The notes beneath the pieces were generated by a model, which was not told the DNA's origin, did not search any database, and saw nothing but the letters and a program-made list of their open reading frames with translations. Positions 29,393 through 32,724 of a stretch of DNA of 46,037 nucleotides are shown here, one piece after another; position 1 is the first letter of the stretch; the number at the start of each line of letters is the position of its first letter. The stretch lies in sequence record PQ850598.1; one strand, written 5' to 3'. The position numbers and the translations under genes are program-made. Origin of the DNA: Escherichia phage ClaudiaMuster_Bas77.

Positions 29393-29863
29393 ATGCCATC
29401 ATTACGCGATTACAAAGCAAAGCGCCCTAACTGGGCGCTATTCGACACGATAACGTTTTACCATTCGTCTTTTGGCTATGTACGGCTTGTTGCTAACGTA
29501 CTTGATGAAATGGTGCTTGGCGGAGAAACATACCTACCAGTGCGCATGGACATCACGCAGTCTCAGCAGTCGAATACTCCAGCAATTAACGCAACCGTCA
29601 AGTTTGCTCGTCTGGCTAATGACTTCAAGCAATACCTGAAACTGTGGACTGGTTCCGGTCGCATTGAGCCAATTACCGCGCTGTATCAGCGATTTGAAGA
29701 GACTGACACCAACACACCATTAAAGCCATATCGCCTGTATGTAAGCGACGTGGCTATGGACGGTTCTGACGTTACCGTTACGCTGTCAATCAAAAACCCA
29801 ATTAAAGGAAATGTGGCAAAACTTTATGACATCGCTCAATTCCCCGGTCTGCGTAATGTCTGA
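29393..29863 (+). CDS. minor tail protein (gpL-like)
   Basis: 156-aa ORF with AAGGAA RBS; call by position in the lambda-like M-L-K-I-J order. Confidence 0.45.
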
Positions 29864-30326
29864 TGAAGAATTTGCGCAGTTAATGTTTGGCAAACCGTAC
29901 AAGGACAGATGTTGCCATGTTGATGCCGTTGATTGCTGGGGTCTGGTGGTGCTTTATTACCGCCTGTGCCGTGGCATCAATATTCATCATGACGACAGTT
30001 ACGATAATGGTGGAGCTTTTGTTACCTGCTTCGATAGCGAAGTGACATTCTGGCAGGATACGAAATCACCAGCAACAGGCGATGTTGTTGTAGCATATCG
30101 CGGTGACATCCCCGTACACATCGCCATGATATGGGGGCGTGATAGAATACTTCATGCGCGAGAGAAAACGGCAGTCAGATTTGACAGGCTGCGAACACTC
30201 GAAAAAATATCAACAAAGTTAAGGTTTCTCACCTATGCCAGTAATTCATGTTCAGAAGATGCCGGGCACGCCGAAAGAAACAGGAATTGTGCCAGCGGGC
30301 ACAAACCTTTGGAAGTGGCTGAATAA
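29811..30326 (+). CDS. tail assembly protein, NlpC/P60-like (gpK-like)
   Basis: [10 protein letters not shown] (Cys) and downstream His residues (HIAMIW, HA) consistent with an NlpC/P60 fold; probable start at ATG ~29859; 3' end overlaps the next gene by ~90 nt in another frame. Confidence 0.5.
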
Positions 30327-32724
30327 ATCAAATCTACCAGCCAGCATTTCAATTGCGGTAAATGGCAGAGTGCTTGGTGAAGATGATGAGCTTTCTTTCT
30401 GCCTGCGCGATGGCGACGTGGTCAACGTTTATTGTCAGCCGTCAGGCGCAATCGGCGACCTTATCGGCGCAATACTGAAGCCAGTAACGAAGATTTTCTC
30501 TTTTCTTACACCAAAAGTATCCACGCCGAAAACGGATACCAGCTCCAAAACATCACCGAATACCAGCCTAAAGGCGCAAACCAACATTGCGCGAAATGGC
30601 GAGGCGCGCCCTGATAACTTCGGGCAGATTCGTGCATTCCCTGATTTGCTTCAGGAATCATTATTTGAATACATCAACAATATTAAATATGTCACAGAGT
30701 TCATGAATTTTGGCCTCGGTAAATATGATGTATCATCCGTGCGTTATTCTGAGTCAAACCTCGGTTCACTGGCTGGCGCGAGTTACACCATCTATCAGCC
30801 TGGAGAAGTTATTCCGGTTGTGTATGAGCCTTATGCATTTGATGATGTTGATGGGCAGGAGCTTTACGGGCCAAACGAACTGGATACTAACCCACCACCA
30901 GTAGTCATTGAAACTGCGACAACAACCACGGTTACAGAAACAGAATTTGCTGGTGGTCAGATTGCTGTCAAAATACCGAAAAACTCAGCATTCGATTACT
31001 TCGTTGACCTAACTATGCCTCATGACGTGGTGTTCAAACTGAATATCACTTACGCGCAGGGGGGTGGTGCATCTGTCACCGAAAACGTTACGCTATCAGG
31101 AAGACTTGTATCTGCAACCGAGACTGATGATGGTGGTTTGCCGCCAGTAAACTACTGGTACACATTTATTATTAACAGCATCAACTACTCAGGCGCGCCA
31201 ATATCATCATTGAACGGCGTGACGATTAACAACACCTATTTCAACCTAACTGACAACCAACCAATCGTTTCTGGTCCTTACTTTTCGCCAATTGAAGGTG
31301 ATCAGTTATGGGTGCATATATCACATCAGGCCGGAGAGGATGCTAGGCCAACCGCACTTATTGAATGGTGGAAACTGGACGATGACAACAATCAGGTTCC
31401 GGGAACTTATCAGTCCTACAACTTTGATGGTGGCGAGGCACCACGGCAGGATACTTTTTACTGGACGTTAAAGTTCTCTCCATCAGGAGGAACTGGTCGC
31501 TATGCTGTGCAGTTACGAAGAACAAACAACAGCAACAGCATGTCAATCATGCAGGTTGAGGAAATCCACTCAATCGTCACTCGCACCAACGTTTCGTATC
31601 CAGATGACACCGTGGTTAAGGTTATCGTGCGAGCAACAGAGAACGCCACAGGCAGTCGTGACAGGAAATATAATGCGTTAATCACACGTCACACCATCGG
31701 ATATAACCGAGATGCTGGCACCGTGCGCTACACGCTAGCACCTTCTCGCAGTTTTGCTGATGCTGTGCTGCATAACTGGCTGATTACCGCTGGCAATCCA
31801 GAAAATACCATCGACATAGTGAAGCTGTATGAAATTGCCGACAGCCTGCCTGATGAGCGTCTTGGTTATTTCGATTACACGTTTGACGATGAGGATAAGA
31901 GTATCGGCGAGCGCCTGCAAACAATCTGTGATGCGGCCCGTGTTACTGCATTCTGGGATGATGGGGTAATGAGCTTCTCTCGCGATGAGAAACGAGAATA
32001 TCCGGCAACTGTATTCAATACCAGAAACACACAGAGCGACGGCTATAAGCTGAGTTATGACATCAGTCTTCCAGGCACTTACGATGGCGTTAACGTTGAA
32101 TATCGTGACCCAACAACGAACAAGCAGGCCAACGTTTACTATCGAATTACCGATAGCGGAATAGTCGAAGGGGAACCAACGAAAGCCAAGAAGTTCGACA
32201 TGCTTTATGTTCGCAATCGCTATCAGGCTGTTGACCGCGCAATCCTTGAGTGTCGCCGACTTATTTATTCACGCCGTAGCATGGAAATTAAAGCGCTGGC
32301 AGATGGCGAATGGGTTAACGTAGGCGACATGATTCAGGTTGTCGATATGTATGATGATGTGCAACAGACTGGCGTTATTGAAGCGCGTAACGGGAACATA
32401 TTCACAACCAGCGAGCAACTCACGGCAGATGATAATCTCTACGTTGTGATTACCAGTTCTGACGGCAGCGTGTCAGACAGATTGCCAGCAACAATAACAG
32501 GATTGCATACATTCACCTGCAACCTGCCATCTGATTTTCAGTTAAATATTTGGGACGGAACAAACGTACAATCCGAATCTCGTTACGTACTGAGCACGGA
32601 GAAGGAACTTGATACTACTTTATGGGTTGTCAGTCAGAAGAATCCAGGCAGTGATGGAACAACAACGCTGACGATGAGTGAATACTCTGATGATATGTAC
32701 GAATATACCATCCCGTCATCGTGA
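30235..32724 (+). CDS. tail tip / host-specificity protein (gpI-like N-terminus fused to J-like body)
   Basis: 829 aa; N-terminal ~90 aa resembles a lambda gpI-type beta-grasp domain ([25 protein letters not shown]); large beta-rich body. Confidence 0.5.

What the first reader, a model, noticed from the sequence alone, without database searches (positions are those of the whole stretch)
29811..32724. Dual receptor-binding apparatus: gpI-like/J-like fusion plus separate depolymerase tailspike, with unusual K/I overlap
The NlpC/P60-type gpK-like ORF overlaps the next gene by ~90 nt in a different frame. The next gene carries a gpI-like beta-grasp N-terminus fused to a large J-like body. A separate tailspike with a pectate-lyase N-cap (DFGAVGDGATDDT) follows at 32764..34671. 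This suggests two host-recognition steps (capsule or O-antigen depolymerisation, then an outer-membrane receptor).
Basis: partly seen in the sequence, partly recalled or inferred. Interest (0 to 1): 0.4.

Follow-up and report, generated by a model that had tools for sequence, protein, structure and literature searches.

The report
Known siphophage tail-tip hub and tailspike
This is the ordinary tail-tip gene set of an O-antigen-dependent E. coli siphophage whose near-identical relative has already been solved by cryo-EM; the gene overlap and the fused hub protein are real but already known, and nothing supports a second, outer-membrane receptor step.

Summary
The sequence observations hold. 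A gpK-like NlpC/P60 ORF (29811/29856..30326) overlaps the next gene (30235..32724) by 92 nt in the +1 frame. That gene encodes an N-terminal ubiquitin-like beta-grasp domain, a gpI-like plug and a J-like hub. A beta-helix tailspike follows (32764..34671).

None of it is unusual. The window is 97% identical in DNA to BASEL phages Bas78-80. The 829-aa protein is 93.5% identical to Shigella phage Sf11 gp14 (baseplate hub protein 2, PDB 9OCC). Iyer et al. described I-J fusions paired with JAB-less NlpC-only K proteins in 2006.

Lambda K and I overlap by 103 nt. In 80 relatives the overlap is always present but ranges from 14 to 92 nt. The K tail is unconstrained (1 synonymous against 86 non-synonymous codon differences, versus 84 against 4 in the hub frame). 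Synonymous resampling predicts a median overlap of 89 nt.

The J-like part ends at about lambda J residue 610 and has no fibre or receptor-binding domain. By homology, the tailspike docks on the distal tail protein, not on J. Published data point to O-antigen as the essential, probably only, receptor.

The open residue: whether the JAB-less K cleaves off the ubiquitin-like domain, and what the distal tail protein's GTA-spike-like appendage does.

The parts
28002..29375 (+). Distal tail protein (DTP), 457 aa. N-terminal ring domain plus tailspike-adaptor helix (residues 129-152, nt 28386..28457), and a C-terminal appendage (GTA head-spike-fibre-like domain, residues 217-402, nt 28650..29207).
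   Evidence: PDB 9OCC_C (Sf11 gp17), E=3.9e-200. E129/E136/E147/E152, the salt-bridge residues of the Sf11 adaptor helix, are all present. NF048003 at 2.4e-28. 6TB9 RcGTA head spike fibre at 1.2e-9.
29393..29863 (+). Baseplate hub protein 1, gpL-like, 156 aa.
   Evidence: PDB 9OCC_F (Sf11 gp16), E=1.9e-101. 98% identical to the Sf11 ORF. phrog_396 minor tail protein at 1.5e-42.
29811..30326 (+). gpK-like NlpC/P60 cysteine peptidase with no JAB domain. The start is ambiguous (29811, 29826 or 29856). Its last 26 codons are an unconstrained tail.
   Evidence: Pfam NLPC_P60 at 9.8e-9, with no JAB hit even at E<=5. Aligns to lambda K 71-151 with Cys, His and His conserved. DCW and PxH are invariant in 78 relatives. 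No PDB match. Its homologue is absent from the Sf11 virion mass-spectrometry table.
30235..30326 (+). 92-nt out-of-frame overlap between the K 3' end and the hub 5' end. The Shine-Dalgarno AAGG for the hub gene lies at 30220..30223.
30235..30450 (+). Ubiquitin-like beta-grasp domain (hub residues 1-72), equivalent to the gpI N-terminal domain.
30451..30639 (+). Hydrophobic linker plus gpI C-terminal-like plug segment (hub residues 73-135).
   Evidence: BLASTP of residues 87-133 against lambda gpI 151-197, E=5e-5. Lambda gpI 135-223 forms the lumen plug that holds the tape-measure C-terminus (PMC10721106). The block SPN..Q.N.ARNG.A.PD..GQ is invariant in the family.
30640..32724 (+). J-like baseplate hub body (hub residues 136-829). 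It has no fibre or receptor-binding C-terminus. It contains a mosaic patch at residues 361-440 (nt 31315..31554).
   Evidence: NF040662 TipJ-related, 451.8 bits against a cutoff of 140, residues 355-823. Lambda J 339-560 aligns to residues 561-774. PDB 9OCC_E over the full length. Patch.
32764..34671 (+). Tailspike, 635 aa. N-terminal DTP-docking adaptor (residues 1-155, nt 32764..33228), beta-helix body (about residues 160-565) and C-terminal beta-sandwich (residues 568-629).
   Evidence: PF18668 at 1e-19, PF12708 at 3.5e-8, PF25692 at 1.6e-6. Residues 1-154 match Sf11 gp13 at 5.8e-74. R16 and K19 are conserved. AF2 pLDDT is mostly 90 or more from residue 160, all-beta. Foldseek hits to CBA120 TSP1/3, HK620, Sf6 and phi29 gp12.

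Best explanation
The region is the distal part of the tail-tip module of a Skatevirus-cluster / Sf11-type siphophage.

(1) The gpK-like gene encodes a non-virion NlpC/P60 cysteine peptidase used during tail-tip assembly. Its conserved fold ends at '...RFLTYA', exactly where the next gene starts. The stop codon has drifted downstream, so 26 extra, unselected codons read across the next gene's 5' end. The overlap is a neutral by-product that also places the hub gene's ribosome-binding site inside K (translational coupling is inferred).

(2) The 829-aa product is baseplate hub protein 2, a natural fusion of gpI to the hub portion of gpJ. The gpI part comprises the ubiquitin-like beta-grasp, a hydrophobic linker, and the plug that holds the tape-measure C-terminus. 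Three copies close the tail tube. There is no J-type fibre or receptor-binding domain.

(3) The tailspike trimer docks through its N-terminal helices onto an adaptor helix of the distal tail protein (six trimers per virion, by homology with Sf11). Its beta-helix body binds and presumably cleaves O16 O-antigen. This is the essential and probably only specific receptor, and it brings the hub to the membrane, where the hub opens for DNA ejection.

Shown here or in cited work: gene anatomy, folds, homologies, virion composition of Sf11, and O-antigen dependence of relatives. Inferred: the trigger mechanism, enzymatic cleavage of O16, and the role of K.
For: Identity of the phage: 97.4% DNA identity over 28000-34700 to Bas79, with the same gene layout and the same annotated 92-nt overlap.

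Solved homologue: 9OCC chains match the DTP, BH1P, BH2P and the tailspike N-terminus, with 93.5% identity for the hub.

Overlap:
- All 80 relatives keep the ATG, and K is always in the same frame. Overlaps are 14/41/53/59/71/80/89/92 nt.
- Among 16 close relatives, codon differences are 84 synonymous and 4 non-synonymous in the hub frame, against 1 synonymous and 86 non-synonymous in the K frame.
- The neutral expectation is a median of 89 nt.
- Lambda K/I overlap by 103 nt.

Fusion: beta-grasp, gpI C-terminal similarity, TipJ family and lambda J 339-560. The architecture was described in PMC1779556.

Tailspike. Docking residues are conserved on both partners.

Receptor: PMC11990801 (Bas77-81 depend on O16, single receptor-binding protein) and PMC12724387 (Sf11 needs full LPS, not OmpA/C/F). 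No other fibre-like gene is found among the large ORFs of the window.
Against: - No experiment was done on this phage.
- Only three porins were tested for Sf11, and no terminal-receptor screen in an O16 background was found in the papers read.
- The hub carries a mosaic patch (residues 361-440) of unknown role.
- The DTP has a GTA-spike-fibre-like appendage that could be a second binding module.
- The tailspike body shares only about 30% overall identity with Sf11 gp13, so six-fold docking is inferred from the conserved N-terminus alone.
- Pfam Lambda_tail_I does not match the N-terminus.
Confidence: 0.8

Rival explanations
1. One reading: two sequential receptors. The tailspike strips O-antigen or capsule, then the J-like hub tip binds a specific outer-membrane protein that triggers ejection.
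For: This is the general pattern of many siphophages (T5, Dhillonvirus; PMC11990801). The hub has a mosaic patch at residues 361-440 that could be surface-exposed.
Against: The protein ends at the equivalent of about lambda J residue 610, with no fibre or receptor-binding domain. Outside the patch the hub is 92-99% identical among phages whose tailspike bodies are unrelated (relative score 0.04 or less) and whose hosts range over E. coli, Shigella, Salmonella and Klebsiella. The patch allele does not track the tailspike either. OmpA, OmpC and OmpF are dispensable for Sf11. [quoted passage not shown]
Confidence: 0.15
2. There are two host-binding elements, but the second is the C-terminal appendage of the distal tail protein, a glycan-binding module homologous to the RcGTA head-spike fibre, and not the J-like protein.
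For: NF048003 GTA_spike_fiber at 2.4e-28. PDB 6TB9 head spike fibre at 1.2e-9. Matches to tail-fibre PHROGs. The appendage is accessory: 57 of the 76 scored relatives have a DTP of about 150-159 aa (69 are under 180 aa, 4 are about 190 aa) and only 2 have a long one. It diverges fast: 54% identity to Sf11 against 96% for the ring domain. It projects outward in the Sf11 map, where its function is stated to be unknown.
Against: No binding data exist. Most relatives infect their hosts without it. It may be structural or play an environmental-adhesion role.
Confidence: 0.25
3. The long overlap is functional: either dual coding with a required K C-terminal tail, or a programmed +1 frameshift that makes a K-hub fusion.
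For: The overlap is present in every relative, and at the same junction in lambda. Iyer et al. mention one prophage with TAPI fused to the JAB.
Against: The K tail varies from 0 to 26 residues beyond the minimal stop and evolves with 86 non-synonymous against 1 synonymous codon change. The length matches the neutral expectation. Four relatives have only 14 nt of overlap. The frame relation differs from lambda (+1 here, -1 there). T1 has a 4-nt overlap and HK97 none.
Confidence: 0.03
4. K is a virion-borne peptidoglycan hydrolase that helps the tail cross the cell wall.
For: NlpC/P60 enzymes are typically cell-wall endopeptidases (Pfam family).
Against: The homologue (gp15) is not among the Sf11 virion proteins identified by mass spectrometry. 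Lambda gpK is not detected in virions (PMC10721106). A conference report says lambda gpK acts on gpI (PMC12908700).
Confidence: 0.05

Closest known systems
Shigella phage Sf11 tail tip (PDB 9OCC; Subramanian, Dover & Parent, J Virol 2025, PMC12724387)
   Same: Same gene order and the same proteins. BH2P is 93.5% identical, BH1P 98%, K 87% and the DTP ring domain 96%. The tailspike N-terminal adaptor and the salt-bridge residues are conserved. The K/hub overlap is 89 nt (L016).
   Different: The tailspike body is unrelated (about 30% overall identity; O16 versus S. flexneri O-antigen). The DTP appendage is only 54% identical. The hub patch at residues 361-440 is a different allele (61% identity).
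BASEL phages Bas78-80 (SandraMuster, SusanneMuster, ChristineMuster; Skatevirus cluster; PMC11990801)
   Same: 96.7-97.4% DNA identity across the whole module, including the tailspike, with identical annotation and overlap. They depend on O16 O-antigen.
   Different: Essentially none at this locus. The window is another isolate or variant of the same group.
Phage lambda K-I-J tail-tip genes
   Same: An NlpC/P60 K gene is followed by a ubiquitin-like I gene and a J hub. There is a long out-of-frame K/I overlap of 103 nt. The gpI N-terminal domain is unresolved in virions and its C-terminus forms the plug (PMC10721106). K is not in virions.
   Different: Lambda has I and J as separate genes, K carries a JAB domain, and J has FNIII domains and a LamB-binding C-terminus. 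The overlap is in the other frame. Lambda targets a porin.
TAPI-TAPJ fusions with NlpC-only TAPK (Iyer, Burroughs & Aravind 2006, PMC1779556)
   Same: This is exactly the architecture seen here: a ubiquitin-like TAPI fused to TAPJ, and a neighbouring K with NlpC/P60 but no JAB.
   Different: It was described only from prophage sequence analysis. Here it sits in a lytic phage group that has a solved virion structure.

Membership tests
Lambda gpK / TAPK tail assembly peptidase | NlpC/P60 (C40) domain with a Cys-His-His catalytic triad | tested here: met
   PF00877 at 9.8e-9. Cys of DCW, His of PVH and His of ILH align to lambda K C72, H138 and H151. DCW and PxH are invariant, and the third His is present in all displayed representatives, among the 78 relatives aligned.
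Lambda gpK / TAPK tail assembly peptidase | N-terminal JAB/MPN (deubiquitinase-type) domain | tested here: not met
   Lambda K matches Prok-JAB at 6e-5. The window K gives no JAB hit even at E<=5, and there is no room upstream because the ORF starts inside the gpL-like gene.
Lambda gpK / TAPK tail assembly peptidase | Encoded between the L-like and I-like genes and absent from virions | tested here: met
   Gene order. Absence from virions rests on the literature for Sf11 and lambda; it was not tested for this phage.
Lambda gpI / TAPI | N-terminal ThiS/MoaD-like ubiquitin beta-grasp domain | tested here: met
Lambda gpI / TAPI | Match to Pfam PF06805 Lambda_tail_I | tested here: not met
   No hit at E<=10 for residues 1-120 or 1-355, while lambda gpI scores 1.1e-28. 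The sequence is too diverged; the relation rests on fold and context.
Lambda gpI / TAPI | Hydrophobic linker followed by a C-terminal plug domain | tested here: met
   Residues 87-133 against lambda gpI 151-197, 28% identity, pairwise E=5e-5. A hydrophobic stretch, [17 protein letters not shown], precedes it. The evidence is weak but positionally consistent.
Lambda gpI / TAPI | A separate polypeptide | tested here: not met
   A single ORF of 829 aa, conserved at full length in more than 100 homologues down to 54% identity.
TipJ / gpJ host-specificity protein | Hub domains (NCBIfam NF040662) | tested here: met
   451.8 bits against a cutoff of 140, residues 355-823 covering model positions 5-477 of 477. 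Lambda J 339-560 aligns.
TipJ / gpJ host-specificity protein | C-terminal FNIII repeats, central fibre and receptor-binding domain | tested here: not met
   The protein ends about 55 residues after the segment aligned to lambda J 339-560. There is no significant alignment to J 600-1132.
Sf11-type baseplate hub protein 2 (PDB 9OCC chain E) | Full-length collinear homology | tested here: met
   phmmer 1776 bits, residues 1-829 against 1-828. 775 of 829 residues identical.
Beta-helix tailspike depolymerase | Pectate-lyase-like right-handed beta-helix | tested here: met
   PF12708 at 3.5e-8. The AF2 model is all-beta from residue 165 with pLDDT mostly 90 or more. Foldseek probability is 1.0 to the CBA120, HK620, Sf6 and phi29 tailspikes.
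Beta-helix tailspike depolymerase | Glycan-cleaving activity on the host O-antigen | not testable with these tools
   Inferred from the O16 dependence of phages 97% identical in DNA (PMC11990801).
Sf11-type tailspike docking on the DTP | DTP adaptor-helix acidic residues and tailspike N-terminal basic residues | tested here: met
   DTP E129, E136, E147 and E152, and tailspike R16 and K19, are all present. The tailspike N-terminus 1-154 matches gp13 at 5.8e-74.

The most novel reading that the evidence does not exclude
In this I-J-fusion lineage the JAB-less, NlpC/P60-only K protein acts as the 'deubiquitinase'. It would clip the N-terminal ubiquitin-like domain (after about G74) off the hub protein once the hub has joined the tail-tip complex, giving an assembly checkpoint run by a papain-fold peptidase instead of the JAB domain reported for lambda gpK.

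This is consistent with three observations:
- Residues 1-80 are missing from the Sf11 model.
- The K catalytic triad is invariant.
- The 'QPxG..G(D/G)' end of the beta-grasp resembles 'VPxxxGxKxGG' of lambda and T1 gpI (PMC12908700).
Probability: 0.35. Interest if true: 0.5.

Novelty: already known. Interest (0 to 1): 0.15.

Why it matters
As filed, it matters little. The locus is a further copy of a tail-tip module that already has a cryo-EM structure (Sf11) and receptor phenotyping (BASEL Bas77-81). The 'unusual' overlap is a neutral feature with a textbook precedent in lambda.

What the check contributes:
- It corrects the receptor model. The tailspike sits on the distal tail protein, and the J-like hub has no receptor-binding domain.
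- It gives a quantitative demonstration that the K tail is unselected.
- It leaves two small open questions that could be tested in a tractable K-12-based system: whether an NlpC/P60-only K processes the ubiquitin-like domain of a fused hub, and what the GTA-spike-like appendage of the distal tail protein binds.

Tried and rejected
- Start-site error for the hub gene: rejected. The ATG, 'MP(V/L)I' and the Shine-Dalgarno are conserved in 80 relatives, and the overlap encodes strand 1 of the beta-grasp.
- Functional dual coding or a programmed frameshift: rejected. The frame relation also differs from lambda.
- Pfam on the whole hub protein: no hit. NCBIfam and PHROGs gave the family.
- PDB sequence search with K: nothing.
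- Search for a JAB domain in K and neighbouring tail ORFs: none.
- Search for a second fibre or receptor-binding gene among the ten other large ORFs: only packaging, head, tail-tube and replication proteins.
- Whether the hub's mosaic patch tracks tailspike type or DTP length: it does not.
- Literature search for a full paper on gpK cleaving gpI: only a conference summary was found.
- Kagunavirus assignment, suggested by the first BLAST summary: rejected in favour of the Skatevirus cluster (Bas77-81), following PMC11990801.
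Full report
WHAT IS THERE.
The ORF map shows a co-directional tail module:
- tape measure protein, 25519..28002
- a 457-aa protein, 28002..29375
- a 156-aa protein, 29393..29863
- a 171-aa ORF, 29811..30326
- an 829-aa ORF, 30235..32724
- a 635-aa ORF, 32764..34671

The last three are the finding. The 171-aa ORF matches Pfam NLPC_P60 (E=9.8e-9, above the gathering score). The only caveat is that the K start is ambiguous: ATGs lie at 29811, 29826 and 29856, the closest annotated relative uses the last one, and family conservation begins just after it.

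WHERE IT COMES FROM.
The segment 28000-34700 is 96.7-97.4% identical over its whole length to Escherichia phages Bas78, Bas79 and Bas80. Bas79 is annotated with the same genes and the same 92-nt overlap. The BASEL paper places Bas77-81 in the Skatevirus cluster and shows that they infect E. coli K-12 only when O16 O-antigen is restored (PMC11990801).

Four of the proteins match chains of one PDB entry, 9OCC, the cryo-EM tail tip of Shigella phage Sf11 (PMC12724387):
- The 829-aa protein matches gp14, 'baseplate hub protein 2'; 775 of 829 residues are identical.
- The 156-aa protein matches gp16, 'baseplate hub protein 1'.
- The 457-aa protein matches gp17, the distal tail protein.
- The tailspike N-terminus 1-154 matches gp13.

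The K-like protein has no PDB match. Its Sf11 homologue, gp15, is not in the virion mass-spectrometry table. Likewise lambda gpK is not found in virions.

THE OVERLAP.
I fetched 80 related loci from viral contigs, with hub proteins 53-98% identical.
- In every one the hub gene starts with ATG and 'MP(V/L)I'.
- An AAGG or GGAG lies 10 nt upstream.
- The K ORF runs across that start in the same relative frame.
- The overlap length is not conserved. Counting distinct sequences, it is 14 nt (4), 41 (8), 53 (40), 59 (3), 71 (8), 80 (1), 89 (4) and 92 (9).

The conserved K sequence ends at '...(E/R)F(Y/L)xYA', which is where the hub ATG sits. What follows is a tail of 2-28 residues with no conservation.

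Among 16 close relatives, the 89 nucleotide differences from the window in this stretch were classified by codon. They give 84 synonymous and 4 non-synonymous differences in the hub frame, but 1 synonymous and 86 non-synonymous in the K frame. These are pairwise counts, not independent events, but the asymmetry is stark.

I also resampled synonymous codons for the window's own hub N-terminus, using the phage's codon usage. The K-frame stop then falls at a median of 89 nt, with P(>=92)=0.43. The commonest values are 41, 71, 92 and 89, the very lengths seen in nature. So the overlap is real, is not a sequencing or annotation error, and is exactly as long as chance predicts once the short 'YAxN*' ending is lost.

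It is also not unusual for this gene pair. In the lambda reference genome, K (14276..14875) and I (14773..15444) overlap by 103 nt, although in the other frame. T1 has a 4-nt overlap and HK97 has none.

THE FUSION.

Pfam's Lambda_tail_I model does not detect it. However, residues 87-133 align with lambda gpI 151-197 (E=5e-5 pairwise). That is the part of gpI that cryo-EM shows as the lumen plug holding the tape-measure C-terminus (PMC10721106).

Residues 355-823 match the NCBIfam TipJ-related model far above its cutoff. Residues 561-774 align with lambda J 339-560. The protein stops about 55 residues later, so it has no counterpart of J's FNIII repeats, fibre or LamB-binding domain.

The full-length architecture is conserved in hundreds of database proteins down to 54% identity. 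[quoted passage not shown] That is the situation here: lambda K has a JAB match and the window K has none. Its Cys-His-His triad is conserved: DCW and PxH are invariant in 78 relatives, and the third His is present in all representatives inspected.

THE TAILSPIKE.
Pfam finds Tail_spike_N (1e-19), the pectate-lyase-like PF12708 (3.5e-8, residues 162-350, containing the DFGAVGDGATDDT motif) and the depolymerase C-terminal sandwich (1.6e-6). The AF2 model is an all-beta body with pLDDT mostly 90 or more from residue 160. Foldseek matches the CBA120, HK620, Sf6 and phi29 tailspikes with probability 1.0.

Homologues share the N-terminal 150-200 residues but carry many unrelated bodies. This is the usual cassette exchange seen in tailspikes.

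In Sf11 the tailspike's N-terminal helices bundle with an adaptor helix of the distal tail protein, giving six trimers per virion. All four acidic adaptor residues (E129, E136, E147, E152) and both basic tailspike residues (R16, K19) are present in the window.

HOST RECOGNITION.
Several lines of evidence count against the 'two recognition steps ending at an outer-membrane receptor':
- The J-like protein has no receptor-binding domain.
- The hub is 92-99% identical, outside one patch, among phages of E. coli, Shigella, Salmonella and Klebsiella that carry unrelated tailspikes.
- Sf11 requires full-length LPS but not OmpA, OmpC or OmpF.
- No other fibre-like gene is seen among the large ORFs of this near-complete genome.

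The model cannot be excluded, because only three porins were tested in Sf11. I give it 0.15.

WHAT REMAINS OPEN.
(a) Cleavage of the ubiquitin-like domain. [quoted passage not shown] In both lambda and Sf11 that domain is missing from the models: only gpI 134/135-223 and gp14 81-827 were built. Whether the JAB-less K of this lineage does the same job with its papain-fold domain is untested. The end of the beta-grasp here, 'CQPSGAIGD', resembles 'VPRVAGAKSGG' of lambda and 'VPIPTGSKTGG' of T1.

(b) The appendage of the distal tail protein. The C-terminal 290 residues match the GTA head-spike-fibre domain (NF048003 at 2.4e-28; PDB 6TB9). This appendage is present in only 2 of the 76 scored relatives, and is 54% identical to Sf11 against 96% for the ring domain. 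It could be a second glycan-binding element. The Sf11 paper calls its function unknown.

(c) The hub mosaic patch. Hub residues 361-440 form a mosaic patch with three alleles that track neither the tailspike nor the DTP type.

VERDICT.
Domain calls and the fusion are right; the 'unusual overlap' and the 'dual receptor' model are not supported. The feature is already known from a solved structure, from phenotyped near-identical phages and from a 2006 comparative analysis. Interest is low.

Noticed in passing
window 28650..29207 (distal tail protein residues 217-402; whole gene 28002..29375): The distal tail protein carries a roughly 290-residue C-terminal appendage that matches the GTA head-spike-fibre domain (NF048003 at 2.4e-28; PDB 6TB9 at 1.2e-9). 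Only 2 of the 76 scored viral-contig relatives have it. It is 54% identical to Sf11, against 96% for the ring domain. It may be a second glycan-binding module; the Sf11 paper gives its function as unknown.
   Followed up: partly
window 31315..31554 (hub protein residues 361-440): This is a mosaic patch: 46-71% identity among relatives that are otherwise 91-100% identical. Three alleles are seen among close relatives. The allele tracks neither the tailspike body nor the distal tail protein length.
   Followed up: partly
window 29811..29863: The K-like ORF has three in-frame ATGs (29811, 29826, 29856), all inside the 3' end of the gpL-like gene. Some relatives lack the third and would have to start at the equivalent of the second. 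The true start is unresolved.
   Followed up: partly
window 32764..33228 versus loci L004-L045: The tailspike N-terminal adaptor (about 155 residues) is conserved across relatives, with a relative alignment score of 0.7-0.8. The bodies downstream of the hinge are unrelated (0.04 or less) and range from 585 to 984 aa. This is classic cassette swapping at the hinge near residue 160.
   Followed up: partly
window 37397..38023 (- strand); loci L007, L012, L019: An HNH endonuclease gene lies in the recombination and replication arm. In some relatives, about 670 nt of extra sequence lies between the distal tail protein gene and the gpL-like gene; it is annotated as a homing endonuclease in phage IME207.
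   Followed up: no
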